Positions 7,482-25,968 of a stretch of 32,000 bases of DNA are shown here, in pieces. The DNA is from Pirellula staleyi DSM 6068 (GTDB taxonomy: Bacteria; Planctomycetota; Planctomycetia; Pirellulales; Pirellulaceae). Location of the stretch: positions 30,001 to 62,000 of the forward strand of contig CP001848.1 of assembly GCA_000025185.1 (NCBI GenBank), in the 5' to 3' direction. The notes beneath the pieces were generated by a model. That model saw only the letters and a program-made list of their open reading frames with translations. It made no database searches and was not told the DNA's origin. Every line of letters starts with the position of its first letter. The stretch's first letter is position 1. The position numbers and the translations under genes were made by a program.

Positions 7482-7659
7482 TCCAGCCTTAACTTGACCC
7501 ACCCCACTTTTTAGGGAACGATCTACACAGTCCTTCAGGATGAATACCTGACGGAGCAGAAGCGTCCGCTGACAACGGCTCGATGATACCAACTTCATCG
7601 CCCCGCGCGCCGAGCCGTTGCGACTCGAAATCAAACTCTCCTACAAAACGTCTAGGTAC

Positions 7660-8397
7660 ATGACGACCAATCCCTACGAGCCACCGGAATCACGTTCTCC
7701 CAAGCCAACGTCGCACGGAATAAGAAGTGCTGAACTGCGACGCACTATAGCGACGTTTGTGATTATGTTTGTCGGACCCTTCGCAGCGATCATTGCTTTC
7801 TTTACCACGTGTTCCGCAGTTCCGAAATCCAGCGGGCTGATGGTCGTATCGTTCGTTCTTTCGAGTCTTGCAGCGGGAGTAGCCTACAGCTTGGCTGTTT
7901 ACTGCACACTACCGAAATACCGTACCCTTGCTCATCGGAGTGTAACTCGCAGTTCAAAGGCGATTCCAAGTTCGGCAAGCGAGAGCGAGCCGATTACTTC
8001 CGCGAAGAACGAGGGGATCGAGCGAACCTGTCCCGTTTGTCGCCGCAAGATGCCTGACAATAGTCGCCACTGCGAAAACTGTTTGTATGTCGAGCCAGCA
8101 GCCAAGTCCCTCTATCTCGAAGAAGCCAAAGATTTATCGAGCGTCGAATTAGCTCCGATCGCACCACAGCCGATGTCACGCACCACGATCATGTTGATGG
8201 CCCCAGTTGTGGCCATCTTTCTAACGTGCCTCGCAACACTTGTTGTGGCGATCTCCATCGAGCTAAGCCTATCGAGTCGCTTTGGCATCGAGACATTTGC
8301 CATCGCAGCCTTGGCAGCAATTGCAACAGTGGCGGTTGGCCTCATCGCCACCATCGTTGTCACCTTGCGATTTTACAAATGGTACGAACGGTCGTAG
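7660..8397 (+). CDS. Uncharacterised 4-TM membrane protein, paralogue E1: NPYEPP tail, internal CxxC-x9-CxxC zinc ribbon, AFFxTC helix
   Basis: The track ORF begins at TTG 7618. ATG at 7660 gives MTTNPYEPPESRS, in parallel with the N-termini of the next two genes. TM helices include FVGPFAAIIAFFTTC and MAPVVAIFLTCLATLVV. The ribbon is CPVCRRKMPDNSRHCENC. The C-terminus is VVTLRFYKWYERS. The next gene starts 18 nt downstream. Confidence 0.75.
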   Translation: MTTNPYEPPESRSPKPTSHGIRSAELRRTIATFVIMFVGPFAAIIAFFTTCSAVPKSSGLMVVSFVLSSLAAGVAYSLAVYCTLPKYRTLAHRSVTRSSKAIPSSASESEPITSAKNEGIERTCPVCRRKMPDNSRHCENCLYVEPAAKSLYLEEAKDLSSVELAPIAPQPMSRTTIMLMAPVVAIFLTCLATLVVAISIELSLSSRFGIETFAIAALAAIATVAVGLIATIVVTLRFYKWYERS

Positions 8398-8415
8398 TCC
8401 CAGGCGAGCGAACCG

Positions 8416-9167
8416 ATGCCCGACCCAACACCTACCAACCCCTATGAGCCGCCACCAATTGCCAAGCGCTACTGCACAGCATGTGGCAGCGTGGTGATGG
8501 GCAATGACGCTAAGTGCCCCCTATGCGGCGAAGCAGAATCGCTACCCACCAACCGCTGCGCTCACTGCCAAACACTCTGGCGCAGCGACTATCCGTACTG
8601 CCTTGGCTGTGGCCGCTCACACACCGGCAACTATACGACCTCCGGGAAACACAATGGCATCAACCCTCAACGTGCGGCTGCAAATGTGATGATTGTGATA
8701 GCTGCCCCCTTCGCTGCATTTCTGGCATTCTTTGCCACATGCGGCTTCGGAAATACGGGCTTCGACGGTGGAGCTGGGCAATTTTTCTGGCGAGTCTTGC
8801 AGCTGCAGCAACCTTTTCCTTAGTAGTCTTCTTGACGATTCGGAATCGAAGAGAGCCCAAGCCTACGACTGTCGAAGCTGTCGTACCTACCTCCCCTAAA
8901 ACCGCAACCAATCCACCGCATCACCCGAACAAGTCGCTCGCGCACTCGCGTGAGATTTCACCGCAAACCTGGATACTTATCGCACCCTTTGGCATCATTC
9001 TATTGACGTGCTTTATTTCGTTTATTGTCCTCGTTACCTTTCTCGACAATCGCCACACCTCGATTCAAACGGCAATAGGCTTAGGATTTCTAGTAGCTTT
9101 GGCCGGAATAGTCATCGCGGTGGTTGTCACCTTGCGACTCCTTCAACGTGACGAGAAGCCTCAATAA
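8416..9167 (+). pseudogene. Paralogue E2 of the NPYEPP/zinc-ribbon membrane family, interrupted by a frameshift (or an assembly error, or recoding)
   Basis: Frame A (8416..8823) encodes MPDPTPTNPYEPP, a double ribbon (CTACG..CPLCG..CAHCQ..CLGCG) and the helix AAPFAAFLAFFATC, then runs into WRVLQLQQPFP*. Frame B, open to 9167, continues with FLASLAAAATFSLVVF ... ILIAPFGIILLTCFISF ... VVTLRLLQRDEKPQ, which mirrors the second half of E1. The switch maps to the T5 run at 8782-8786. One extra T would give a continuous protein of about 250 aa (E1 is 245 aa). Confidence 0.65.
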
Positions 9168-9183
9168 CCTTGCGACTGAATTG

Positions 9184-9495
9184 ATGGCCGACCAACCCAT
9201 GAACCCTTACGAGTCGCCGCCACCACGCGAAGCTCCTGAGCCGATTATCCTAGAGCCGGTGAAAGTCGGGTTGGCTCAGCTGATTGTGATTGCTGCGATG
9301 GTGCTGCTGATGTTTCCGCTGCTTGGCCTGGGATTCGGCCTGTCGCACTTCGCCGCAGGGATGCTGGTCGAGCAGAATGCTTGGCTCGGCGAGGTGCGGC
9401 CACATCCGCTCGTGCTGGTGGCCCCCTTCGTCGTGGTGCTCGCGATTTTTTCGACCTGGATCTGGCTGATGGCCCGCATTGCCAGTGGCAGATAG
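9184..9495 (+). CDS. Uncharacterised 2-TM membrane protein, paralogue E3: NPYESPP tail, no zinc ribbon
   Basis: The track ORF starts at TTG 9124. ATG at 9184 gives MADQPMNPYESPPPREAPEP, followed by two hydrophobic helices. The second is LVLVAPFVVVLAIFSTWIWLMARIA, which has the APF signature. It begins 16 nt after the E2 stop. Confidence 0.65.
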   Translation: MADQPMNPYESPPPREAPEPIILEPVKVGLAQLIVIAAMVLLMFPLLGLGFGLSHFAAGMLVEQNAWLGEVRPHPLVLVAPFVVVLAIFSTWIWLMARIASGR

Positions 9496-9556
9496 GTGCA
9501 GCGATTGCTGGCCGGAGCTCTTGTACCGCACTTGCAAGACGACGACATTAGAGGCC

Positions 9557-9970
9557 ATGAGCACTCCCGATCCTTCCGCCCAGCTTGGCCCTGAAACCAC
9601 CTGCCCAACCTGCGGACTCCAGATCCCCGCCGGGAGCTCGCAGTGCATCGTGTGCGCCTATGCCTCCCCGCGGCAGGTCACCGATGCTGATCTGGCACCG
9701 CATCGCTCCAAACTCTCAGTCGGCCGAGTGATGGGGATCACCGCCATCGTGATCCTGATGCTCCCTGCCTCGGCGATCGCGTTTTTCGCCACCTGCTTTG
9801 CGACGGCTGTTTCGCTCGACGCCACCATTCCGCAAAACGATCCGTTTATCTATCTCACCACTGGTTTGCTGGTGGGATCGGTCTGTGGCATTGCCACGTT
9901 CGTCGGACTCATTTTCTGGATCGTGCGACTCGCTCGTCCGCGCAGTGCGCAGCCAGTTCAAAATCCCTAG
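9557..9970 (+). CDS. Uncharacterised 2-TM membrane protein, paralogue E4: N-terminal CxxC-x9-CxxC ribbon and AFFATC helix
   Basis: The track ORF starts at TTG 9479. ATG at 9557 gives MSTPDPSAQLGPETTCPTCGLQIPAGSSQCIVCAY. The TM helix ILMLPASAIAFFATCFATAV is followed by a second helix ending FWIVRLARPRS. It begins 61 nt after E3. Confidence 0.65.
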   Translation: MSTPDPSAQLGPETTCPTCGLQIPAGSSQCIVCAYASPRQVTDADLAPHRSKLSVGRVMGITAIVILMLPASAIAFFATCFATAVSLDATIPQNDPFIYLTTGLLVGSVCGIATFVGLIFWIVRLARPRSAQPVQNP

Positions 9971-16914: not shown

Positions 16915-17520
16915 TTAAGGCTGCACCGGTTTTTTGGCGCAGGCTGCCAGCACATCGTCGGTGATGTCGATCCCCTCTTCGAAGAAGACGATCCGGTTGA
17001 GCGTTTTCATGATTTCAGGAAGAGGCTGCTCGTCGTCGAAGCTGGTGCTTTGCTGGCGAATGACCAGTTTGTAGCCCCGCTCCTTCGCCAGTTTTTTGAC
17101 GACGTCGTCGACTTCGCGAAAGACTCCCAGCAGTACTTTGGCCTCTTGCATTTGGAGGTTGCCGCGCTCTCGGGCCACCATTTGCTGCAGCTCGCCATTG
17201 AGCTTCAGAAACTGCTGCTGCAGTTTCACAAACTCCCCCGATCCGGGCTGGGTTTTACGCAATTGCGACTGCACCGATTCCAGTTCGATCTGCCGAATCT
17301 GAATCGTTTCCTCGAGCTTTTTGGCCTCGGCGCGGAGCGGTTCGAGGCGATCCTGGATTCCGGGAAACTCTTTGATCAGACGATCGACATTCAGCGTCGC
17401 CACGCCGGTGCTGCTTGTCTGGGGAGGCTGAACCTTGGAGTCTGCCTCTTGCGCCAGTGCGATAGAGCCGATGAGCAACAAGCAGCTGCTGGCGGCGAAG
17501 GTGCGAAGGAAAGGATTCAT
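16915..17520 (-). CDS. skp: OmpH/Skp-family periplasmic chaperone
   Basis: ATG at 17520 is preceded by GGAG; the track start at 17523 is a TTG. The signal peptide is MNPFLRTFAASSCLLLIGSIALAQ. The remainder is a roughly 170-aa helical region rich in Q, E, K and L (LEPLRAEAKKLEETIQIRQIELESVQSQLRK...), typical of Skp/OmpH. Confidence 0.82.
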   Translation of the reverse strand: MNPFLRTFAASSCLLLIGSIALAQEADSKVQPPQTSSTGVATLNVDRLIKEFPGIQDRLEPLRAEAKKLEETIQIRQIELESVQSQLRKTQPGSGEFVKLQQQFLKLNGELQQMVARERGNLQMQEAKVLLGVFREVDDVVKKLAKERGYKLVIRQQSTSFDDEQPLPEIMKTLNRIVFFEEGIDITDDVLAACAKKPVQP

Positions 17521-17657
17521 CAAAAAGTTCTCCGGTGGGTGTCGCGCCGGGAAATGACTGCGACAGAGGAGGAAATTGCGGGAGACTCGATTACCTGATC
17601 AACGGCCAGTCACGTTCGTCTCGAAACATCGAGCACTGGTCAACACTTGGGAATGTC

Positions 17658-19658
17658 CTAGGCGCGCTCGTGAATCAATTCACATTCGGGGAGCGATTCG
17701 AGGAACGTACGACCATAAGCCTTCGTTTGCATGCGGGGATCGAGAATCACCACCATCCCCGAATCGCGCGAACTCCGAATCAGCCGACCGAAACCTTGCC
17801 GCAGTTTTATCACCGCTTCAGGCAGTTGGTAATCCCGGAACGGATTACCCCCCGATTCGCGAATCGCTTCCAGGCGGGCTTCGAGCAGCGGCTGATCGGG
17901 AACGCTAAAGGGGAGTTTGGGAATAATGACGTTTTGGAGCGCATCGCCGGGAACATCGACCCCTTGCCAAAAACTGTCGGTTCCCAGCAGCACGCCGCGT
18001 GGATTTTCTTTGAACCGAGCGAGCATTTGAGTCCGTGGCTCGTGGCCTGCCTGGCTGTAGAGGGCGAGGTTGTTTTCAGCGAGAAAACGGGTCAACAGCG
18101 AGGCTGTGCGCTCGAGATGGGCGTAGCTGGTGAACAGGACAAACGCGTGACCATCGGTCCGCTCGATGTAGCGTTTCATCTGCTCGGCGGCAGCGACTTC
18201 AAACTTATCTTTTTCGCTACCAGGGTCGGGGAGTCCGCTGACGAGAATCAGCTGCGCTTGCTCGCGATAGTTGAACGGGCTCCCGACGCGGATGGCGTCG
18301 GATTGCGTCAGACCGATGCGCGATTTGTAGTAGTCGAACGACCCTTTGCCGGTGGCAAGTGTGGCCGACGTGAGGATCACGCTGCGAGTTTTCTCGAACA
18401 GGTGCTCGCGGAGTGCCGGCCCGACATCGATCGGCGCAGCGGAGAGTTCGACGCGCGGCTTACCGGCGCGCGACGCTTGCTGCGAAATCCAGTAGACGCT
18501 TCCTGCCGTGTCTTGCGAAATCCAGTGCGAAATTTCGCCGGAAATCAGCTGTAAACGATCGGCGGCAGAAAGAAAATTTTGACGTTCGGATTCATCGTCG
18601 ATTTGCTCGCCACAGCGGCGCACTTCGCGCGAAAGTTTCAGAAGCGAGGGGCTTAGCAAGTTGTCGACTTGATCGGGCTCGCGAATTCGTCCGTTTTTGT
18701 GGTCGCGCTGCTGAGCCAGTGTCGCGCAGTCGTGAAAAAAGTCATCCGCGCGAAGATAGCACTGCATCACCAGCTGCTGAGCGGTGGTGAGTTTCCGCGA
18801 GACAAGCAAACCCTTGTTCGTACGATCGTTGTAAAGTCGGCTGAGCAGGTATTGAATCTGCCCGCTGGTGATCGAGAGCCCCAGGTGATCGCCAGCCACT
18901 TGCTCGATGGTGTGGGCCTCGTCGAGGATCGCAGCGTCGTAGTCGGGCAGAATGCTTGCGCCGACGCGGCGAAGCGCCAGATCGCTGAAGAACAGCGCGT
19001 GGTTGACCACTAAGATCTGCGCGTGATGCACGCGGCGCCGCGCGCGGTAGTAAAAGCACTCGCTATAGGTGGGGCAGTTGCGTCCCAGACAGTTGCCGCT
19101 GTCGCTCGCCACTTCATCCCACACGGTGCTCTTGGGCTTGATCGTCATGTCGCTCAGCGAGCCGCCACCGGTCTCTTTCGACCAGGCAACAAGGTCGCGC
19201 ACTTGCTCGAATTCTTCCTCGGTGCTGAAGAGGGTTCGGGCGCGCTCGGCCGCATATTGCAGGCGGCGGAGGCTGACATAGTTGCCACGCCCTTTCACCA
19301 GCACGGCGGTGAACTCGCGCGGAATCACACTCCGCAGCAGAGGCAGATCCTTGGCCAGCAGCTGTTCTTGCAAACTGATGGTGTGGGTTGAGATGACGAT
19401 CCGTTTGCGAGGCCCTTCTTCATCCCCTTCGCTAGCCTGCGCATTTTCAGCCTGATCGGAAGTGGCGTGCAAAATGGCTGGGACAAGATAGGCAAAACTC
19501 TTACCAACACCGGTCCCTGCTTCTGCCACCAAATGACGGCCAGCCGCCAAGGCCTTCGCAATGCCGCCCGACAGGTCGAGCTGCTGAGGTCGGTGTTCGT
19601 AGCCTGGAAGTCTGGCGGCGATTCGGCCGGCTGGTCCAAGGATCTCTTCAGGAAGCAT
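17658..19658 (-). CDS. dinG: ATP-dependent DinG/XPD-family (DEAD_2, Fe-S) DNA helicase
   Basis: Walker A is AEAGTGVGKSFAYLVP and the DEAH box is ILDEAHTIE. A Cys cluster (NCLGRNCPTYSECFY) sits in the Fe-S insertion. C-terminal helicase motifs are VLFTSY, GTDSFWQGVD and LRQGFGRLIRS. The ORF is 666 aa with ATG at 19658. Confidence 0.92.
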   Translation of the reverse strand: MLPEEILGPAGRIAARLPGYEHRPQQLDLSGGIAKALAAGRHLVAEAGTGVGKSFAYLVPAILHATSDQAENAQASEGDEEGPRKRIVISTHTISLQEQLLAKDLPLLRSVIPREFTAVLVKGRGNYVSLRRLQYAAERARTLFSTEEEFEQVRDLVAWSKETGGGSLSDMTIKPKSTVWDEVASDSGNCLGRNCPTYSECFYYRARRRVHHAQILVVNHALFFSDLALRRVGASILPDYDAAILDEAHTIEQVAGDHLGLSITSGQIQYLLSRLYNDRTNKGLLVSRKLTTAQQLVMQCYLRADDFFHDCATLAQQRDHKNGRIREPDQVDNLLSPSLLKLSREVRRCGEQIDDESERQNFLSAADRLQLISGEISHWISQDTAGSVYWISQQASRAGKPRVELSAAPIDVGPALREHLFEKTRSVILTSATLATGKGSFDYYKSRIGLTQSDAIRVGSPFNYREQAQLILVSGLPDPGSEKDKFEVAAAEQMKRYIERTDGHAFVLFTSYAHLERTASLLTRFLAENNLALYSQAGHEPRTQMLARFKENPRGVLLGTDSFWQGVDVPGDALQNVIIPKLPFSVPDQPLLEARLEAIRESGGNPFRDYQLPEAVIKLRQGFGRLIRSSRDSGMVVILDPRMQTKAYGRTFLESLPECELIHERA

Positions 19659-19974: not shown

Positions 19975-20262
19975 ATGACGATCGAATTCTCGTGCTTCGA
20001 TTGCGGACAACTCGTCAAAACTCCCGCTTCGGCGGCGGGTAAGAAGGGTCGTTGTCCCCATTGCGGCACCATCGTTCAGATACCGGCTGAAGCTCCCAAG
20101 CCAGCCCCTCCTCCTCCGCCGCCACCTCCACCAGCCCCACCCGCAGCAGCCGTGGCGATTGAGTTTCCCTGCCCCAAGTGCAACGGACTGGTGCGGACTC
20201 CGCTGTCAGCTGCGGGCAAAAAGGGACGCTGCCCCCACTGCACCACAGTGGTGCAGATTCCG
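19975..20262 (+). repeat. Intragenic tandem duplication of the zinc-ribbon module, separated by a poly-proline run
   Basis: Protein-level repeat: aa 1-36 (19975-20082) and aa 60-96 (20152-20262) share the pattern IEFxCxxCxxLVxTPxSAAGKKGRCPHCxTxVQIP. The spacer PKPAPPPPPPPPPAPP is at about 20095-20139. The DNA copies have diverged, so the duplication is old. Confidence 0.75.
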
Positions 20263-21795
20263 GGGACTTCTCCAGCAGCGCTAGCTCCCACCACAGCAGC
20301 TCCTTCAGCTGCGGCTAAAAAGCCGGTGCCAGAGCCCGTGGCTGCGAAGCCGACACCACCGCCACCTGCCAAACCGAAGTTCGACGACGAACTCACGCTG
20401 GCCGACGATCCCGATCATCCGATTACGACCCCAGCCCCCAAGCCAGCCCCTAAGCCGACTCCCGACCCAGCCAAGGGGGTTAAGCCAGCCGCTGCTAAAC
20501 CGGCCACGCAGCCAGCTGCAGCGCAGCCGTCGGCCAAGCCTGCTGCGCCCGCCAAGCCATCAGGGGCTAAGCCGACAGCACCTGCTGCTGCGTCTTCAAC
20601 CAAACCGACCGTGAAGCCCGCAGCTGCCAGTGGTGCGAAACCGGCGGCCACCACCCCGGCAGCGACGAAGCCGGTCGCTAAACCAACCACCCCTGGCAAA
20701 CCTGCTGCGGGGGGCAAAACGATTCCGGTCGCCAAACCGATCGCCGCGCCGGGAGCGAAGGCCCAACAGCCGACCAACGAACAGTTCGACGATCTGCTTC
20801 CACTGGAAGAAGAAGAATCGCTCGAGGATCTTCCTGTTCTCGAAACCAACGACCTCGGTGGGCTAACACCGCTCACCGATCTGGGGCCGATCCCTGGCAC
20901 AGGACTCCCGGCTATCGGCGCGCCGATGCTCCCCGGAGCGAGCACCGGTGGCACCCTGTTCGCCGCGATGCCCCTGGCCGCTGGACAAGCCACGCCGTTT
21001 GGCACCGACCCAGCCGACGCAGGTTTTCTGCTGGCGAGCGATCCGACCCTTGGCTTACCCGCCTTGCCCCCCAATCCCTATGCGTCACCCGGGGTCAGTT
21101 TGCCATCCGCGAGCCCGGGGCTTGGTTCATCGTTTGTCAGTGGCCCCCGAGAACGGACGGGACTTCCGTGGGATATCGAAGTCTCCGCCGCTGCCTACTG
21201 GCAAACAGCCAAGATGCTGGTCTTCAGCCCATCGCAAGGTTTTGCCGTCATGCACCGGACGGGTGGCGTGAGTGGTCCGCTGGGCTACGCGCTCATCGGA
21301 CTCATGATCGGCCCGCTGGGCGCCCTCTTGTTGATCTATCTCTTTATGATGCTGGTGCTCCTTGTCTCCACCGGCAACTTTGAAGCGATGGTGGGGCTCA
21401 CGCTCATCTTTGCAATCTACGGAATATCGACCTCCGCGGGGATGATGGTGAGTGGCTGTATTGGGCTCCTTGTCGGGGCTGGAATCTCGCACCTCTGCTT
21501 GATGCTGGTCGGTGGCGCGACGCGCCCCTACGAAACCACGTTTCGCGTGCTGGCTTACACCAACGGCTCGGTGGCGCTCATCGGATTCATTCCGTTCATT
21601 GGTGCCATCATCCAAATCGTTTTGACGATTGTGCTGCTGATTAATGGCTACGCCTCGGCACACGGCATCAGCGCGGGACGAGCGGCGCTCGCTGTCTTTT
21701 TGCCTTTGATCGTACTGGGAGGATGTATCTTCGTCGGCATTATGATGCTGACAGGTCTCGTCGCCGCATCGGGACCAAACCCCTCCTCGTTTTAA
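19975..21795 (+). CDS. Uncharacterised membrane protein A: two MJ0042-like zinc ribbons, Pro/Ala/Lys-rich linker, NPYASP and GLPW motifs, Yip1-like polytopic C-terminal domain
   Basis: ATG at 19975. IEFSCFDCGQLVKTPASAAGKKGRCPHCGTIVQIP is repeated as IEFPCPKCNGLVRTPLSAAGKKGRCPHCTTVVQIP. A run of nine Pro follows, then a linker of about 160 aa rich in KPA/KPT, then an acidic patch. PPNPYASP is at 21067-21090 and GLPWD at 21160-21174. The C-terminal domain has about 5 TMs and the motifs HLCLMLVGG and TFRVLAYTNGSVA. Confidence 0.8.
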   Translation: MTIEFSCFDCGQLVKTPASAAGKKGRCPHCGTIVQIPAEAPKPAPPPPPPPPPAPPAAAVAIEFPCPKCNGLVRTPLSAAGKKGRCPHCTTVVQIPGTSPAALAPTTAAPSAAAKKPVPEPVAAKPTPPPPAKPKFDDELTLADDPDHPITTPAPKPAPKPTPDPAKGVKPAAAKPATQPAAAQPSAKPAAPAKPSGAKPTAPAAASSTKPTVKPAAASGAKPAATTPAATKPVAKPTTPGKPAAGGKTIPVAKPIAAPGAKAQQPTNEQFDDLLPLEEEESLEDLPVLETNDLGGLTPLTDLGPIPGTGLPAIGAPMLPGASTGGTLFAAMPLAAGQATPFGTDPADAGFLLASDPTLGLPALPPNPYASPGVSLPSASPGLGSSFVSGPRERTGLPWDIEVSAAAYWQTAKMLVFSPSQGFAVMHRTGGVSGPLGYALIGLMIGPLGALLLIYLFMMLVLLVSTGNFEAMVGLTLIFAIYGISTSAGMMVSGCIGLLVGAGISHLCLMLVGGATRPYETTFRVLAYTNGSVALIGFIPFIGAIIQIVLTIVLLINGYASAHGISAGRAALAVFLPLIVLGGCIFVGIMMLTGLVAASGPNPSSF

Positions 21796-22022
21796 GTTCG
21801 AGGAACCCCAAAAACTTAAGCTTTCAACTATCGCGGCGTGCCTAGCGGCCGAGTACAATCCCGACGCTGTAAGGCCGCGCCGAAAACACCCTGCCATGGA
21901 TGAGAAGTCGACTTCAGCTTCCGATCGAGCACCGGTCTCACAGCCAAGGCCTACAGCCCCTCTCCGGCCCGCAGCCTTTTGCTTCCCTTCGATGCACAAC
22001 CTAGCTACTTGGAAATCGCCGG

Positions 22023-23108
22023 ATGGCTATTGAATTTCGTTGCGATCAGTGTGGTCAATTGCTGCGCGTTCCGGATAACACAGCAGGCAAAAGCGCCCGC
22101 TGTCCGAAATGCCAAGCGATGATGACGATTCCCGCGCAGTCGCCTCCAGGCGGTGCTGGCCCAGCAACCGGTCCGGCAACTCCCCCTGCTGCACCTGTTT
22201 CGCAGTTTCCAAGCACACCCACTGGCCCCGTCGACCAGCCGGCACCACTCCCCACGCTCGGAGCCCCCACGAGTTCCAGCCCGTTTGGTTCACCACCAGC
22301 AGGCGGCTCGCTCTTTGAAGGGGCTCCCCTCAGCCCACCCCCGAAGCCAGCCGGCAATCCTTTTGGCGAGGGAGGTATGGGGTCACCTCCGGGTGCCAAC
22401 CCGTTTGGCCAACCGTCCGAAGCCAACCCTTATGCTTCACCACTGAGCATCTACACTCCGCAATCAGGCCAGCAAGGTCTTCCGTGGGAAGTAAAGGGGC
22501 AAAACTTCGGCACCTGGATGGAGACCACAAAGCTGTTCATCTCGGATTCAGCCCGGGCTTTCACCATCATGCATCCACGTGGTGGGATCGGTGGCCCGAT
22601 GGTGTTTGCCCTGCTGGGGATGTCTATCGGTGCCGCTGGTGGTTTGTTTTGGAACTTAGTGATGCTTCTGGGCCTCGGGATTGTTGCAGGAGCCAATGGC
22701 CAAGGCGATGCAGCAGCCCCCCTGGCCATTCAAGCCGTCACCCAAGTGGGCGCTAGCATCATCGGCACGCTGCTGGGAGCCACGCTCGGGCTTTTGTTCC
22801 AGTCGGCCATTATTCACGTATGCTGCATGGTCGTGGGTGGTGGAAAAACGGGTTTCGATGCCACATTTCGCGTCTTGGCCTACTCCAACGGCGCTCTCGC
22901 GTTCCTGCAATGGATTCCGATCGCGGGTGCCTTAGTTCTCGCGATTTGGGTGCTCGTTCTGGTGATCGTTGGCCTGGCCAAAGTGCACGAAATGCATGTC
23001 GGCAAAACGATCCTGGCGGTATTCCTCCCCGTGATCGTCTGCTGTGTTGTCACCCTGGGCATTGTGGCGCTCGCCGGTGGAGCAGGCGTGCTGATGAACG
23101 CACGCTAA
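22023..23108 (+). CDS. Uncharacterised membrane protein B, paralogue of A: one MJ0042-like ribbon, Pro-rich linker with NPF/NPF/NPY triplet, GLPW, Yip1-like domain
   Basis: ATG at 22023 gives MAIEFRCDQCGQLLRVPDNTAGKSARCPKCQAMMTIP. The motifs GNPFG, ANPFG and ANPYASP span 22356-22442. GLPWEV follows. The membrane domain is clearly homologous to A: FTIMHPRGGIGGP, HVCCMVVGG, TFRVLAYSNGALA, ILAVFLPVIV. Confidence 0.8.
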   Translation: MAIEFRCDQCGQLLRVPDNTAGKSARCPKCQAMMTIPAQSPPGGAGPATGPATPPAAPVSQFPSTPTGPVDQPAPLPTLGAPTSSSPFGSPPAGGSLFEGAPLSPPPKPAGNPFGEGGMGSPPGANPFGQPSEANPYASPLSIYTPQSGQQGLPWEVKGQNFGTWMETTKLFISDSARAFTIMHPRGGIGGPMVFALLGMSIGAAGGLFWNLVMLLGLGIVAGANGQGDAAAPLAIQAVTQVGASIIGTLLGATLGLLFQSAIIHVCCMVVGGGKTGFDATFRVLAYSNGALAFLQWIPIAGALVLAIWVLVLVIVGLAKVHEMHVGKTILAVFLPVIVCCVVTLGIVALAGGAGVLMNAR

Positions 23109-23174
23109 CCGCTTCGGAGAGCCTGTTTCTGAGTTAAACCTGCGACCGAAATAAATCTTAGCTTTCCTCTTCTG

Positions 23175-23207
23175 GCACCTCGCGGCCATTGCTGCGAGGT
23201 GCTTTTT
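23175..23207 (+). terminator. Rho-independent terminator after gene B
   Basis: GCACCTCGC (23175-23183) pairs with GCGAGGTGC (23194-23202) across a 10-nt loop, followed by TTTTT (23203-23207). Confidence 0.7.
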
Positions 23208-23302
23208 GCTACGCAAACATGCTCTAGCTTTGGCCTTGCGCTTTCTCTCCAGCGCAGGCTAGCAATCCTTGGCTCCTGCCCCTCGCGACAAGATGCACCG
23301 CG

Positions 23303-24187
23303 ATGAATTCGAGTCCCGCTGGAGAGAATCCCTTTGCCTCCCCGCAGCCGCTGCGCGCCAGCGAGATTGCCAGCGAAGAGCGGGCGACTCATCCCTTTGC
23401 CGATAGCCCCGAGACCCCGGCGGATATCACCATCGAGGCGATTCCACCCGGCTTGCCGTGGAACCATCGGCTGGGGCTCTTTAGCTGGCTGAAGACCGCC
23501 GAGAGGCTGTTCTTCACGCCGCGCAAGGCGATGGAGTCCTATCGCCCAGCCACCTCGCCATGGGGTGCCTATGGCTTTCTTGCTATTGGCCTCCTCCTCT
23601 CGCTCGGACTCACAGCGGCCATCTGCTACCTCGTTTACCACCTGGAATTTGGTTCCTCTTCTCAGCCCCAAGACCAAATCTCTGAACTTCTCGCAGCCTC
23701 TGACAAACAACTGCTCATCAGCACCCTGCAGTCGATGGCTGCGATCACCCTGCTGTTGGTGCTCGTGATCATTCCGCTGCGCGTGCTGTTAACGCACGGG
23801 CTCTTAAAACTGATGGGAACCTGCCGCTTCAGCATGACACGCACGGCGGAAGCGATTTTCCTTTCGCTCGGCGCAGCCCAGCTCGTGAGTTGGACCACGA
23901 AACCCTTACGGTATGTCCTACCGATCATGAAACTCGAGGAGCTCTCACTCCTGCTGAGCGGAGTGGCGGCCGGGCTCTTGCTCTGGCAGTTCTACCGCGA
24001 GATTGTCGGTCTAGCGGTGGTGCAGCGAATCTCGATGCGACGCAGTTTGGTCGTCAATCTGCTGGTGCAAATCATTATCGGCCTCGCGATCTTCGTGGTG
24101 GCTTTAGGGTACATGACCTACATCGATCTGCAGCGCATCTCGGCAGCCTCCGAGACCTTCAATCCATCAGCAGCCCAGCGCCCTTGA
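23303..24187 (+). CDS. Uncharacterised membrane protein C: NPFASP tail, GLPW, divergent Yip1-like polytopic domain, no zinc ribbon
   Basis: ATG at 23303 gives MNSSPAGENPFASPQPL. PPGLPWNHRLGLFSWLKTAERLFF parallels the GLPW-plus-helix entry of A and B. Five or so hydrophobic helices follow. HGLLKLMGTCRFSMTRTAEAIFLSLG aligns loosely with HVCCMVVGGGKTGFDATFRVLAYSNG of B. Confidence 0.7.
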   Translation: MNSSPAGENPFASPQPLRASEIASEERATHPFADSPETPADITIEAIPPGLPWNHRLGLFSWLKTAERLFFTPRKAMESYRPATSPWGAYGFLAIGLLLSLGLTAAICYLVYHLEFGSSSQPQDQISELLAASDKQLLISTLQSMAAITLLLVLVIIPLRVLLTHGLLKLMGTCRFSMTRTAEAIFLSLGAAQLVSWTTKPLRYVLPIMKLEELSLLLSGVAAGLLLWQFYREIVGLAVVQRISMRRSLVVNLLVQIIIGLAIFVVALGYMTYIDLQRISAASETFNPSAAQRP

Positions 24188-24340
24188 TCGCGTATGTTTC
24201 TAATACGTTTTTGCAGCTGCTGGGTCAGACTGGCAGACCCCGGTGCGACCGGCAAATTCGTTACGTTCCGAAATTACTAGCCAGAGCCCCTAGTAAGTGA
24301 TTAAACTACGGACGTTGCAACTTCTCGTCGGGGATTTCTC

Positions 24341-25870
24341 ATGACCATTGTCGCCTGTCCGCGTTGCCGAGATTCCGTTCGGATTCCGGCCCGTGCTTCC
24401 AATACCGCCATCGTCCGCTGCCCACTCTGTGAGGAAGAATTTCCGATCACCGAGGCCTACGGACAGATTCCCGAACTCGAGATCATCTCGGGCGCACTTC
24501 CCACGTCGAGCTACGCAGCCGACGATGCGGGCGAACTCAACGCCTACGCCTCCCCCGAGCCAACGGAATACGCCGTTGCTCCTGCCGGTGACGGCGTGTT
24601 CGGCACCACAGGCCCCAGCGGCTCCACGGCCGTGATGCCTGTGTCGGGCGTGAAGGGGAAGATTCGCAAAAAGAAAGAAAAATCGGCGATCGCCGAAATG
24701 TTCAAAGTGGTGATGGGGGGCGTAGTCGGAATCGGTCTCGCCCTGGTCGTCCTCTGGTGGGGCTTTAAGACCGACCCGATGGGGATCATTCCTTACGTCC
24801 CATCGTGGGCTGCGTTTATTGTTCCACCCGCGATGCGCGCCGCACCCAAGCCCGACAACACCGCCGGCGGCGCGGGAAATCAGCTCGCTCAGAACAATGG
24901 CATCGACACGAGCGGCAGTCCTGTTCCGGTGGTTCCGAACACACCAGCGGGCGGAGGTTTCATGCCCGCTGATCCTGCCAGCGGCAACAATGCCAGTGGC
25001 GGTTCCTTCGGCTCGGCTGCTGGCGAGCTAACACCTCCTACCGAACTCCCCCCCTTCGATCCCTTGGCCAATACCAGCGGCGAAATGGAACTCCCCGATC
25101 TCGGAACTCCGACGATCGAAACACCTCCCGAACTCGGTCCACCCGCCGAACTCCCCGGTCTTGATCCATCGAGCGTCCCCTCAATCGATCCGCCAGCGAC
25201 CGATCCGCTGAACACCGATCCACCGAGCTCGCCCAATCCAGCTCCACTTCCGGGGCTCGATCCGATGCCAACAGAGCCACAGCCTCTTCCCGAAGCCCCC
25301 CCGGGAACGGAACCTGTGATCTACACCGCTGCCGATTTGCTCAGCTCGGTTTCGAAAGCAGCGGAAGCTCGCAACGTCTTTAAGAACGCCGATCCTGCGG
25401 ATCGCGCTGGCCGTCAAGAACTGGCTCGCCAGATGTATGCCTCGGTCGCTGCGACGGCCAAGATCCTTCCGTCACTCAGCCTCGAAGATGCCGACAACGC
25501 CGATGCTGTAACAGCCGTCTCGGATCTCCTCACGTCGATTGCTACCGAAGTGCCCGAGACCGTCGTCGGTTTTCTCGGCCGCGAACGTTACGAAGCAAGC
25601 GAAGGAGATTCGCAAATGCTGGTGGCGGGCGAGGTGATCGACATTCGCGCTGTAGGCAGCATGTTCGAGTGCGTTGTGAAAATGAAGACCAAAGACAATC
25701 TCGAAGTCACGCTTCTCTCGAGCAAAAACCCGCAAGACAAGTGCGCTGTTGGCGACACGGTGATGGTGGTCGGCAGCAAAGTGGTCGACCCCGCCAAGAA
25801 CGTCGGTGGCTATGAAGGCATGGCCCCTAAAGTGGTCACGTGGGACTACGGCGTGAAGATCGCCAAGTAG
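24341..25870 (+). CDS. Uncharacterised single-pass membrane protein D: MJ0042-like ribbon, NAYASP, Lys-rich stop-transfer plus TM, Pro-rich region, C-terminal globular domain
   Basis: ATG at 24341 gives MTIVACPRCRDSVRIPARASNTAIVRCPLCEEEFPI. ELNAYASPEP follows. KGKIRKKKEKS precedes the TM helix VVMGGVVGIGLALVVLWWGF. The Pro-rich stretch spans roughly 24850-25300. The C-terminal region of about 180 aa ends in a beta-rich segment (MLVAGEVIDIRAVGSMFECVVKMKTKDNLEVTLLSS...VMVVGSKVV). A strong terminator lies 52 nt downstream. Confidence 0.75.
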   Translation: MTIVACPRCRDSVRIPARASNTAIVRCPLCEEEFPITEAYGQIPELEIISGALPTSSYAADDAGELNAYASPEPTEYAVAPAGDGVFGTTGPSGSTAVMPVSGVKGKIRKKKEKSAIAEMFKVVMGGVVGIGLALVVLWWGFKTDPMGIIPYVPSWAAFIVPPAMRAAPKPDNTAGGAGNQLAQNNGIDTSGSPVPVVPNTPAGGGFMPADPASGNNASGGSFGSAAGELTPPTELPPFDPLANTSGEMELPDLGTPTIETPPELGPPAELPGLDPSSVPSIDPPATDPLNTDPPSSPNPAPLPGLDPMPTEPQPLPEAPPGTEPVIYTAADLLSSVSKAAEARNVFKNADPADRAGRQELARQMYASVAATAKILPSLSLEDADNADAVTAVSDLLTSIATEVPETVVGFLGRERYEASEGDSQMLVAGEVIDIRAVGSMFECVVKMKTKDNLEVTLLSSKNPQDKCAVGDTVMVVGSKVVDPAKNVGGYEGMAPKVVTWDYGVKIAK

Positions 25871-25921: not shown

Positions 25922-25968
25922 AGCCTCCGATCGAACTCACTTGGAGTTTGATCGGAGGCTCTTTTTTT
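25922..25968. terminator. Strong bidirectional rho-independent terminator between convergent gene D and the DegT-type aminotransferase
   Basis: A 17-bp stem, AGCCTCCGATCGAACTC (25922-25938) with GAGTTTGATCGGAGGCT (25944-25960), contains one G-U pair and a 5-nt loop. It is followed by T7 (25962-25968) and preceded by an A-rich tract (caaaaataa), so it would work in both directions. Confidence 0.85.

What the first reader, a model, noticed from the sequence alone, without database searches (positions are those of the whole stretch)
19975..25870. Cluster of four uncharacterised membrane proteins combining MJ0042-like zinc ribbons, NPY/NPF motifs, a GLPW motif and a Yip1-like polytopic domain
Genes A (606 aa), B (361 aa), C (294 aa) and D (509 aa) are co-directional with gaps of 227, 194 and 153 nt.

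- A, B and D open with the same ribbon type, hydrophobic-x-CxxC-x(14-18)-CPxC-x(4-5)-IP. It resembles the MJ0042-family finger (TIGR02098, zinc_ribbon_4/5) that I know from Myxococcus.
- A has the ribbon twice.
- A, B and C then share N-P-[YF]-A-S-P, a G-L-P-W-[DEN] motif 12-40 residues later, and a membrane domain of about 5 TMs. That domain is clearly homologous between A and B (F.[VI]MH..GG..GP; H[LV]C.M[LV]VGG; TFRVLAY[ST]NG; LAVFLP[LV]IV) and looks Yip1-like (PF04893).
- D swaps the polytopic domain for a single TM plus an extracytoplasmic Pro-rich stalk and a globular domain.

The predicted arrangement is a cytoplasmic Zn ribbon tethered by very long flexible linkers to an integral membrane module. 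This suggests a membrane-anchored recruitment or scaffolding set. I know of no described function for this combination.
Basis: partly seen in the sequence, partly recalled or inferred. Interest (0 to 1): 0.75.

Follow-up and report, generated by a model that had tools for sequence, protein, structure and literature searches.

The report
Zinc-ribbon-tethered Yip1 membrane protein genes
Four neighbouring Pirellula staleyi genes encode three Yip1-family membrane proteins and an unrelated single-pass protein, most carrying a conserved cytoplasmic zinc ribbon on a floppy tether; only the first two genes are a conserved pair and the function is unknown.

Summary
In detail: all ORFs, gaps, ribbons and NP[YF]/GLPW motifs are where stated. 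The window is Pirellula staleyi DSM 6068 (ADB14740-ADB14743). RefSeq already names A, B and C "YIP1 family protein"; D (Psta_0046) is "hypothetical".

- A and B pass Pfam's Yip1 threshold. C is a divergent ribbon-less paralogue (hhalign 99.2 %).
- GLPW[DE] is the ordered N-terminal cap of this Yip1 subfamily, not a separate module.
- The ribbon cysteines are invariant, and the ribbon is the best-conserved segment. A, B and D miss the MJ0042/Zn_ribbon_4/5 thresholds.
- D belongs to a separate family: remotely related ribbon, one TM, Pro-rich stalk, then a confidently modelled helical + OB-fold domain.
- The four-gene cluster exists only within the genus. Across Pirellulales only A(double ribbon)-B(single ribbon) recurs, often 1-90 nt apart and divergent from a DinG-like helicase.
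- The same ribbon heads DUF4190, DUF975, GYF_2, protease and rhomboid proteins across Planctomycetota. It is tightly coupled to a juxtamembrane NPYASP motif.

Best reading: an A-B membrane pair with tethered cytoplasmic interaction modules, analogous to the GltJ ZnR-linker switch. The ligands are unknown. This is a modest new variant of a known kind.

The parts
19975..21795 (+). Gene A (606 aa; ADB14740.1 / WP_012909005.1, 'YIP1 family protein'). It has two ribbons, a roughly 265-residue Ala/Pro-rich disordered tether and a Yip1 membrane module.
   Evidence: ORF. Pfam Yip1 43.9 bits against a cut-off of 28.6. Exact match to P. staleyi DSM 6068. Linker composition is 22 % Ala and 20 % Pro. All 9 orthologues found also have a double ribbon.
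19975..20082 (+). A, first C4 zinc ribbon (residues 1-36; C7, C10, C27, C30).
20152..20262 (+). A, second C4 zinc ribbon (residues 60-96; C66, C69, C86, C89).
21073..21090 (+). A, NPYASP linear motif (residues 367-372).
21160..21792 (+). A, GLPWD cap plus the Yip1 membrane module (residues 396-606).
22023..23108 (+). Gene B (361 aa; ADB14741.1 / WP_012909006.1, 'YIP1 family protein'). It has a single ribbon, a Pro/Gly-rich tether and a Yip1 module.
   Evidence: The AF2 model has mean pLDDT 80.7.
22023..22136 (+). B, C4 zinc ribbon (residues 1-38). It is modelled as four beta-strands with pLDDT 83-90, and shows 73 % mean identity across homologues.
22425..22442 (+). B, NPYASP motif (residues 135-140). 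NPF motifs precede it at residues 112 and 126. The region is disordered in the model.
22476..23105 (+). B, GLPWE cap, three short helices and five long TM helices (residues 152-361), together forming the Yip1 module.
   Evidence: pLDDT is above 90 from residue 151 onward. Pfam Yip1 45.1 bits.
23174..23203 (+). Terminator-like hairpin after B (13-bp stem with 9 G-C pairs, followed by a T run).
   Evidence: No comparable hairpin lies between A and B.
23303..24187 (+). Gene C (294 aa; Psta_0045). It is a ribbon-less, fast-evolving Yip1-like paralogue with NPFASP (residues 9-14) and GLPW (residues 50-53).
   Evidence: hhalign against the A/B family gives 99.2 %, E = 2.6e-19. It has no Pfam hit. 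Only near-identical relatives were found, plus two marginal hits among 1.8 billion representatives.
24341..25870 (+). Gene D (509 aa; Psta_0046, 'hypothetical protein'). Its parts are a ribbon with a conserved helix (residues 1-50), a linker, a basic patch, a TM (residues 120-138), a Pro-rich stalk (about residues 160-320) and a four-helix + OB-fold domain (about residues 330-509).
   Evidence: The model has pLDDT 94.7 and pTM 0.88. Foldseek matches to OB folds reach E = 7e-5.
25922..25960 (+). Strong terminator-like hairpin after D (17-bp stem followed by a T run).
17658..19658 (-). DinG-like helicase, transcribed divergently from A. It is a conserved neighbour of the ribbon-Yip1 genes in Pirellulales.
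   Evidence: Pfam Helicase_C_2, DEAD_2 and DEAD. Adjacent to ribbon-Yip1 genes in L003, L005, L007, L008, L010, L025, L062, L084 and L089.

Best explanation
A and B are a conserved, probably co-transcribed pair of paralogous Yip1-family inner-membrane proteins, with the N-terminus in the cytoplasm and five TM helices.

Each protein carries one (B) or two (A) C4 zinc ribbons on its cytoplasmic side. The ribbons sit at the end of a 100-270-residue disordered Pro/Ala/Gly-rich tether. The tether ends in short conserved linear motifs (NPF, NPYASP) just before the folded GLPWE cap of the membrane module.

The ribbon plus NPY motif is a portable cytoplasmic interaction module. Planctomycetota attach it to many unrelated small membrane proteins.

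Most likely mechanism (inferred by analogy, not shown):
- A and B form a hetero-oligomeric membrane scaffold, as the paralogues Yip1p and Yif1p do in yeast.
- Their tethered ribbons capture a cytoplasmic partner, or bind the linker motif in cis or in trans. This would give a switchable or multivalent tether like the ZnR-linker switch of Myxococcus GltJ.

C is a lineage-specific paralogue that lost the ribbon. D is a separate family: a remotely related ribbon, one TM and a periplasmic helical + OB-fold domain. D lies next to A, B and C only in Pirellula and is probably not part of the same machine.

Shown: domain identities, order and disorder, conservation, synteny, and the coupling of motif and ribbon. 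Inferred: topology, heteromer formation, ribbon-motif or ribbon-partner binding, and any cellular role.
For: Yip1 identity:
- Pfam scores are above the gathering cut-off for A and B.
- C is homologous by hhalign at 99.2 %.
- RefSeq names A, B and C YIP1 family proteins.

Architecture: the AF2 model of B has an ordered ribbon, a disordered stretch at residues 40-150, and order from GLPWE onward with five long helices.

Conservation:
- The cysteines are invariant in 35 B-type and 32 D-type sequences.
- The ribbon is the most conserved segment: 73 % against 36 % for the TM region in B, and 53 % against 23-33 % for the extracytoplasmic domains in D.

A-B pair:
- Double-ribbon A-type and single-ribbon B-type genes are adjacent in 9 further loci: L005, L006, L007, L008, L009, L012, L013, L015 and L084.
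- Gaps are mostly 1-90 nt where they can be read.
- Terminator-like hairpins lie after B and after D, but not between A and B.

Portable module:
- The same ribbon heads DUF4190 (21 proteins), Yip1 (16), GYF_2 (14), DUF975 (7), HtrA-like proteases and a rhomboid.
- NP[YF] is found in 60 of 89 linkers against 3.7 expected, with consensus NPYASP at a median of 33 residues before TM1.
- Of 34 strict NPY motifs followed by a TM in 1.25 Mb, 31 have a ribbon upstream in the same ORF.
- The ribbon-less GYF_2-Yip1 relatives lack NPY.

Precedents:
- GltJ's ZnR binds its own linker and is released by a ligand, and ZnR or GYF modules with membrane modules are noted as common in planctomycetes (PMC11135422).
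- Yip1p forms a complex with Yif1p and Yos1p, and archaeal Yip1 genes sit in cassettes with fast-evolving small membrane proteins (PMC5898192).
- The GltJ ZnR is among the top two PDB sequence matches of the ribbon profile (E = 0.0065).
Against: - No interaction has been shown, and no candidate partner is encoded nearby.
- The AF2 monomer model leaves NPYASP at pLDDT below 50, so it predicts no intramolecular docking.
- The A/B proteins lack the GYF domain that belongs to the GltJ switch.
- Similarity of the ribbon to GltJ's ZnR is sub-significant and no better than to RPA12 or RpoP ribbons.
- NP[YF] is missing in 4 of 10 A-type orthologues.
- The A-B gap in Pirellula is 227 nt, which is long for an operon.
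- High ribbon conservation could simply reflect the structural demands of a 35-residue zinc knuckle.
- Loci were retrieved with ribbon-derived patterns, so the co-occurrence statistics are conditioned on the ribbon being present.
Confidence: 0.45

Rival explanations
1. This is an accidental neighbourhood. A, B and C are tandem duplicates of a generic Yip1 membrane protein. D is an unrelated gene that happens to lie downstream. The shared ribbon reflects only the phylum-wide habit of putting this small domain on membrane proteins. There is no joint function, and the ribbon is merely a structural or membrane-proximal cap.
For: - C and D are absent next to A and B outside the genus.
- D homologues have unrelated neighbours.
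- A terminator-like hairpin separates B from C.
- The ribbon is promiscuous.
- Similar cytoplasmic ribbons occur in PqiA/YebS transporters.
Against: - The A-type/B-type pair is retained as neighbours across Pirellulales, with distinct orthologous ribbon subtypes and tight spacing.
- The ribbon is more conserved than the membrane domain.
- The ribbon is tightly coupled to the NPYASP motif. This is hard to explain for a passive cap.
Confidence: 0.3
2. These are YknW-like accessory subunits. The Yip1 proteins would modulate the assembly of a membrane transporter or envelope complex, as Bacillus YknW does for YknXYZ.
For: - There are weak NCBIfam YknW_fam hits: A E = 0.033, B E = 0.001, and relatives down to 6.5e-9.
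- YknW is the only bacterial Yip1 protein with a described role (PMC4887032).
Against: - Scores of 13.7-18.6 bits are far below the curated cut-off of 110.
- No ABC transporter, membrane-fusion protein or permease genes lie in the window or in the related loci.
- YknW has no ribbon or tether.
Confidence: 0.1
3. This is eukaryote-like membrane trafficking. Yip1 proteins carrying NPF/NPxY-type sorting motifs would recruit a small GTPase or coat or adaptor proteins to remodel the invaginated planctomycete membrane.
For: - Eukaryotic Yip1p acts in Rab-dependent vesicle formation (PMC5898192).
- From my own knowledge, not tested here: NPF and NPxY are endocytic adaptor motifs in eukaryotes.
- GltJ's linker binds the Ras-like GTPase MglA.
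Against: - The NPY motif tracks the ribbon, not Yip1. It occurs equally on DUF4190, DUF975 and RDD proteins.
- No GTPase, EH/PTB-like or coat gene lies in the neighbourhood.
- The Yip1 family (COG2881/pfam04893) is also represented in other bacteria and in archaea (PMC5898192).
- Outside Myxococcales, ZnR-GYF proteins do not correlate with mglAB.
Confidence: 0.05

Closest known systems
Yip1 family (Pfam PF04893; yeast Yip1p/Yif1p, Bacillus YknW, archaeal arCOG02054)
   Same: - A and B pass the Pfam threshold, and C is a remote homologue.
- They have five TM helices with an N-terminal cytoplasmic extension.
- Paralogues occur together, like Yip1p-Yif1p.
- They are accompanied by fast-evolving small membrane paralogues, as in the archaeal cassettes.
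   Different: - They have N-terminal C4 zinc ribbon(s) on a long disordered tether with NPF/NPYASP motifs.
- They have the GLPWE cap signature.
- There is no Rab-like or transporter partner in the neighbourhood.
- No solved structure matches the membrane module.
Myxococcus xanthus GltJ (AgmX) N-terminal ZnR-linker-GYF switch (PDB 7zok; PMC11135422)
   Same: - An N-terminal roughly 40-residue C4 zinc ribbon, a flexible linker holding a short binding motif, then a membrane anchor.
- The ribbon profile matches the GltJ ZnR weakly (E = 0.0065).
- 14 of the 90 related planctomycete ribbon proteins also carry GYF_2.
   Different: - A, B and D have no GYF domain.
- The membrane part is a polytopic Yip1 module (or, in D, a single TM plus an OB fold), not a GltJ-type single TM with a periplasmic domain.
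- The candidate linker motif is NPYASP.
- No MglA/MglB/AglZ context is evident.
MJ0042-type zinc finger (TIGR02098; Pfam Zn_ribbon_4 PF13717 and Zn_ribbon_5 PF13719)
   Same: - Two CxxC knuckles spaced by 16-17 residues at the extreme N-terminus of a larger protein.
- Some relatives reach these models: Zn_ribbon_4 in 23 of 90 and TIGR02098 in 10 of 90.
   Different: - A, B and D themselves score well below the curated cut-offs.
- They are equally close to RpoP, FmdB, PqiA and LysW ribbons.
- They have a distinctive signature: M-x-I-E-F-x-C-x-x-C-x-x-x-L-R-V-P-D-x-x-A-G-K-x-A-R-C-P-x-C.
OB-fold domains (anticodon-binding OB of Lys/Asp-tRNA synthetases, Stn1/RPA32), compared with the D C-terminal domain
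   Same: A five-stranded beta-barrel matched by Foldseek at E = 7e-5 to 1e-3 with probability 1.0.
   Different: - Identity is only 10-20 %, and only the barrel half of the model aligns (TM score normalised to the query 0.30-0.38).
- The barrel is preceded by a four-helix unit that has no match.
- It is predicted to be periplasmic, so nucleic-acid binding is unlikely.

Membership tests
Yip1 (PF04893) | The Pfam HMM score reaches the gathering cut-off (28.6 bits). | tested here: met
   A scores 43.9 bits and B 45.1 bits. C has no Pfam hit, but the C family versus the A/B family by hhalign gives 99.2 %, E = 2.6e-19. The C-like gene in L084 scores 19.1 bits, E = 1.2e-3.
Yip1 (PF04893) | A polytopic core of about five TM helices behind a cytoplasmic N-terminal region. 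| tested here: met
   The AF2 model of B has five long helices at residues 190-360 with pLDDT above 90. The hydropathy scans agree. The topology itself is inferred.
Yip1 (PF04893) | Interaction with Rab/Ypt GTPases or a paralogous Yif1-like partner (the eukaryotic functional definition). | not testable with these tools
   Only genomic adjacency of the A and B paralogues is available.
MJ0042-type zinc finger (TIGR02098 / Zn_ribbon_4 / Zn_ribbon_5) | The HMM score reaches the curated cut-off. | tested here: not met
   Zn_ribbon_4: B 17.6 bits and D 12.5 bits against a cut-off of 30.3. Zn_ribbon_5: A 13.4 bits and B 12.9 bits against 29.3. TIGR02098 is not listed for A, B or D at E <= 1. Among 90 related ribbons, 10 hit TIGR02098 at E <= 0.01 and 23 hit Zn_ribbon_4 at E <= 1e-3.
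MJ0042-type zinc finger (TIGR02098 / Zn_ribbon_4 / Zn_ribbon_5) | Two CxxC pairs about 15-20 residues apart that form a zinc ribbon. | tested here: met
   Spacing is 16 residues in A and B and 17 in D. The cysteines are invariant. B is modelled with a four-strand ribbon.
GltJ-type ZnR-linker(-GYF) switch | An N-terminal ZnR, then a disordered linker, then a membrane anchor. | tested here: met
   B has an ordered ribbon, a linker with pLDDT around 50, and then the membrane module. D has a ribbon, a linker and a TM.
GltJ-type ZnR-linker(-GYF) switch | A GYF domain after the linker. | tested here: not met
   A, B, C and D have no GYF_2 hit. GYF_2 is present in 14 of the 90 other ribbon proteins.
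GltJ-type ZnR-linker(-GYF) switch | The ZnR binds a motif in its own linker, and a ligand competes for it. | tested here: inconclusive
   The ribbon and the NPYASP motif co-occur strongly. However, the monomer model leaves the motif disordered, and no complex prediction or binding assay was possible.
YknW family (NF052650) | The NCBIfam equivalog score reaches 110 bits, and the gene is associated with an ABC transporter or membrane-fusion protein. | tested here: not met
   Scores are 13.7 bits (A) and 18.6 bits (B). There are no transporter genes in the neighbourhood.
OB fold (D C-terminal domain) | A five-stranded closed beta-barrel matching known OB domains. | tested here: met
   The model has pLDDT 94.7. 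Foldseek against the PDB finds the OB domains of LysRS/AspRS, Stn1 and RPA32 at E = 7e-5 to 1e-3 with probability 1.0. Ligand specificity was not testable.

The most novel reading that the evidence does not exclude
The N-terminal ribbon (MxIEFxCxxCxxxLRVPDxxAGKxARCPxC) and the juxtamembrane NPYASP motif together form a Planctomycetota-wide two-part cytoplasmic 'address' or switch module. It is shared by at least eight unrelated membrane-protein families: Yip1, DUF4190, DUF975, RDD, rhomboid, HtrA-like proteases, thioredoxin-like proteins and GYF-containing proteins. Through ribbon-motif binding in cis or in trans, or through one common unknown receptor, it would cluster, localise or gate a whole class of membrane proteins. 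The conserved A-B Yip1 pair would be a core member.
Probability: 0.2. Interest if true: 0.7.

Novelty: new variant of a known kind. Interest (0 to 1): 0.38.

Why it matters
Bacterial Yip1-family proteins, and the small DUF4190, DUF975 and RDD membrane proteins, are abundant and almost entirely uncharacterised.

This analysis shows that in Planctomycetota they share a highly conserved tethered zinc ribbon that is tightly coupled to one short linear motif. That gives a concrete and testable handle on their function: does the ribbon bind the peptide, and what is the ribbon's partner?

The organism is cultured (P. staleyi DSM 6068). The work also extends the GltJ 'ZnR-linker switch' concept beyond Myxococcus.

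There is a practical point as well. Public gene calls frequently cut off the ribbon, so domain surveys based on those calls will undercount this architecture.

On its own the locus reveals no new pathway or mechanism.

Tried and rejected
- RNA elements: Rfam and tRNA scans of the window found nothing.
- MJ0042 membership: tested and not met for A, B and D.
- C as an independent novel family: rejected, because profile-profile comparison shows it is a divergent Yip1 paralogue.
- Ribbon-less NPY-bearing Yip1 proteins as counter-examples: P0116 turned out to have a ribbon behind a miscalled GTG start. P0117 lies on a 1-kb contig and cannot be judged.
- Four-gene operon: rejected on synteny and on the hairpin after B.
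- YknW-like transporter accessory: no transporter context.
- Sigma-70 promoter scan: no sites, which is uninformative for this phylum.
- Literature: searches for the NPYASP-type motif, for DUF4190/Yip1/RDD combinations and for the Psta locus tags gave nothing specific.
- Frameshift suspicion for ORFs 8416-8823 and 8514-9167: not resolved.

Full report
**1. What is there.**

The window carries four co-directional ORFs exactly as described:

| Gene | Coordinates | Length |
|---|---|---|
| A | 19975-21795 | 606 aa |
| B | 22023-23108 | 361 aa |
| C | 23303-24187 | 294 aa |
| D | 24341-25870 | 509 aa |

The gaps between them are 227, 194 and 153 nt.

All four products are exact matches to Pirellula staleyi DSM 6068 proteins ADB14740.1 to ADB14743.1. 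C carries locus tag Psta_0045 and D carries Psta_0046. RefSeq already names A, B and C 'YIP1 family protein', and D is 'hypothetical protein'.

A near-identical MAG (GCA_002483025.1) annotates A as 394 aa and B as 243 aa, which cuts off the ribbons. The long forms are correct: 33 homologues align from Met1 through the ribbon.

**2. Domains of A, B and C.**

- Pfam Yip1 (PF04893) scores 43.9 bits for A and 45.1 bits for B, against a gathering cut-off of 28.6.
- A and B are clear paralogues (BLASTP E = 2e-34).
- C has no Pfam or NCBIfam hit and matches A and B only weakly in pairwise comparison.
- A profile of C and its three relatives aligns to the A/B family with 99.2 % probability (E = 2.6e-19). 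The alignment runs from the GLPW segment through the last TM helix.
- C is fast-evolving. The word-indexed search found one 96 % relative. The exhaustive HMMER scan of 1.8 billion representatives added only two hits at E = 1e-4.

An AlphaFold2 model of B was built from 35 sequences (mean pLDDT 80.7):
- The four-strand ribbon at residues 1-38 is ordered (pLDDT 83-90).
- The linker at residues 40-150 is disordered (pLDDT about 50 or lower), including NPF and NPYASP.
- From G152-L-P-W-E onward the model is confident (pLDDT above 90): three short helices and then five long TM helices.

GLPW[DE] is also present in GYF_2-Yip1 relatives that have no ribbon (P0042, P0045, P0055). It is therefore the N-terminal cap of this Yip1 subfamily and not a free-standing motif.

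No solved structure resembles the membrane module.

**3. The ribbon.**

- The four cysteines, G22 and R26-C-P are invariant in 35 B-type sequences. The cysteines, G22 and P28 are also invariant in 90 ribbon-bearing ORFs from 79 loci in Planctomycetota species-representative genomes.
- It is the most conserved part of B: 73 % mean identity, against 36 % for the TM region.
- A, B and D score below every curated zinc-ribbon threshold. TIGR02098 (MJ0042) is not hit at all.
- Among the 90 relatives, 23 reach Zn_ribbon_4 at E <= 1e-3 and 10 reach TIGR02098 at E <= 0.01. However, 48 resemble RpoP and 30 resemble FmdB.
- A ribbon profile searched against PDB sequences gives only marginal hits. The top two are RPA12 (E = 0.005) and the ZnR of Myxococcus GltJ/AgmX, PDB 7zok (E = 0.0065).
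- The resemblance to MJ0042 is therefore real but generic, and membership is not established.
- D's ribbon is related only at profile level (93 %, E = 2.9e-7). It carries its own conserved helix, EEYxLAEALxxLPPALIV.

**4. D.**

D has 34 full-length homologues, all unnamed. The conserved parts are the ribbon plus helix, a basic patch (RPKRKEKS), one TM, a WW...DP...PWIVP segment, a variable Pro-rich stalk and a C-terminal domain.

The basic patch on the N-terminal side of the TM implies that the ribbon is cytoplasmic and the C-terminal domain extracytoplasmic. This follows from the positive-inside rule and is an inference.

The C-terminal 192 residues model with pLDDT 94.7 and pTM 0.88 as four helices followed by a beta-barrel. 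Foldseek matches the barrel to OB folds of Lys/Asp-tRNA synthetases and of Stn1/RPA32. These matches have E = 7e-5 to 1e-3, 10-20 % identity and TM scores (normalised to the query) of 0.30-0.38. The helical half has no match.

**5. Synteny.**

I ran tblastn of the window proteins against 83 fetched loci and catalogued the ORFs.

- The A-type (double ribbon) and B-type (single ribbon) genes are neighbours in L005, L006, L007, L008, L009, L012, L013, L015 and L084.
- Where the gaps can be read they are mostly 1-90 nt.
- In L003, L005, L007, L008, L010, L084 and L089 a ribbon-Yip1 gene is divergent from the same DinG-like helicase. The OmpH gene lies beyond the helicase where the locus extends that far.
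- C and D gave no hit in any locus except the closest relative, L084 (D 66 % identical). There the order is A, B, two C-like genes, D.
- D homologues at 30-35 % identity sit among unrelated genes.
- In the window, strong terminator-like hairpins follow B (23174-23203) and D (25922-25960). None lies between A and B or between C and D.

The conserved unit is therefore A-B, and the four-gene cluster is specific to Pirellula. It does not affect the A-B pair or the conservation of the ribbon.

**6. A wider pattern.**

The same ribbon heads many different Planctomycetota membrane proteins:
- DUF4190 (21 of 90), Yip1 (16), GYF_2-containing proteins (14) and DUF975 (7)
- HtrA-like proteases (4) and a rhomboid
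- an RDD protein, P0077

These genes often occur in tandem arrays.

NP[YF] occurs in the linker of 60 of 89 of these proteins, against 3.7 expected from shuffled linkers. The consensus is N-P-Y-A-S-P, at a median of 33 residues before the first TM.

In 1.25 Mb of fetched DNA the strict motif NPY[AEQS][SPA]P followed by a TM occurs 34 times. In 31 cases a ribbon lies upstream in the same ORF. The other three are the window's own genes at 7.6-9.5 kb, and two of those carry ribbons downstream of the motif.

One apparent ribbon-less exception, P0116, proved to be a miscalled start.

Ribbon and NPY motif thus behave as one two-part cytoplasmic module. One caveat applies: the loci were retrieved with ribbon-derived patterns.

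**7. Mechanism.**

No function has been shown for any of these proteins. There are three useful precedents.

- **GltJ of M. xanthus.** An N-terminal ZnR on a flexible linker binds a motif in that linker. MglA-GTP releases it, and the freed ZnR then recruits MglB. The authors note that ZnR or GYF modules followed by membrane modules are common in planctomycetes, with unknown ligands (PMC11135422).
- **Yeast Yip1p.** It works in a complex with its paralogue Yif1p and the small protein Yos1p. Archaeal Yip1 genes sit in cassettes with fast-evolving small membrane proteins (PMC5898192).
- **Bacillus YknW.** It modulates the assembly of a transporter complex (PMC4887032).

I therefore favour this model. 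A and B form a paralogous membrane pair. Their tethered ribbons and NPY motifs mediate switchable or multivalent cytoplasmic interactions, either ribbon to motif (in cis or in trans) or ribbon to an unknown partner.

Several points count against a simple cis-docking picture:
- The monomer model leaves the motif disordered.
- A and B have no GYF domain.
- NP[YF] is missing in 4 of 10 A orthologues.

Rivals are listed separately: accidental neighbourhood, a YknW-like accessory role, and eukaryote-like trafficking.

**8. Verdict.**

Yip1 identity, the ribbon, the tether and D's architecture hold. The four-gene unit and MJ0042 membership do not.
- Much of this is already in public annotation or in the literature as a general architecture.
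- The new points are the conserved A(double)-B(single) ribbon-Yip1 pair, the ribbon-NPYASP coupling across families, the assignment of GLPWE as the Yip1 cap, and the helical + OB fold of the D family.
- I rate it a new variant of a known kind, of moderate interest.

Noticed in passing
L002:8235-9419 and L002:10001-10732 (GCA_002483025.1); L089:3747-4664: Public gene calls cut off the N-terminal zinc ribbon. A is called at 394 aa and B at 243 aa in the MAG. P0116 is called at 272 aa, although a GTG 99 nt upstream encodes a complete ribbon. Surveys based on called proteins will undercount this architecture.
   Followed up: yes
window 7618-9970 (+): This is a run of small membrane-protein ORFs. 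Three of them open with NPYE[PS]P, and several carry other (DZR-like) zinc ribbons. The products of 7660-8397 and 9479-9970 are weakly homologous (tblastn E = 1.7e-7). ORFs 8416-8823 and 8514-9167 overlap in different frames, which may indicate a frameshift or a miscall.
   Followed up: partly
window 16915-19658 (-); L003, L005, L007, L008, L010, L025, L062, L084, L089: A DinG-like helicase is transcribed divergently from a ribbon-bearing membrane-protein gene in many Pirellulales genomes, down to 55 % helicase identity. An OmpH/Skp-like gene lies beyond the helicase in most of them. The reason for this conserved arrangement is unknown.
   Followed up: partly
L036:8993-11707; also L021, L024, L046, L076: These loci hold tandem arrays of two or three paralogous ribbon + NPY + 2-TM genes, probably DUF4190-type. 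Ribbon-bearing membrane proteins therefore tend to duplicate locally.
   Followed up: partly
L073:10001-12463, L075:10001-12556, L078:2578-5031, L079:10001-12568: The same ribbon heads proteins of about 820-855 aa with a single TM and a trypsin/HtrA-like protease domain. Other fusions include a rhomboid, thioredoxin-like domains and Peptidase_S9.
   Followed up: no
window 20001-21000: Composition is anomalous here: GC 0.654, GC skew -0.171 and AT skew +0.208. This corresponds to the Ala/Pro/Thr/Lys-rich low-complexity tether of A. The length of A orthologues varies from 386 to 747 aa, so tether length seems unconstrained.
   Followed up: partly
window 24539-24556 (D residues 67-72): D contains N-A-Y-A-S-P in its cytoplasmic linker, a near-copy of the NPYASP motif. 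The closest homologue has NAYQSP, and more distant D homologues lack it.
   Followed up: no
window 3689-6418 (+): A 909-aa protein with DUF5117 and DUF4953 (Met-zincin) domains (E = 1.9e-80). It is unrelated to the finding.
   Followed up: no
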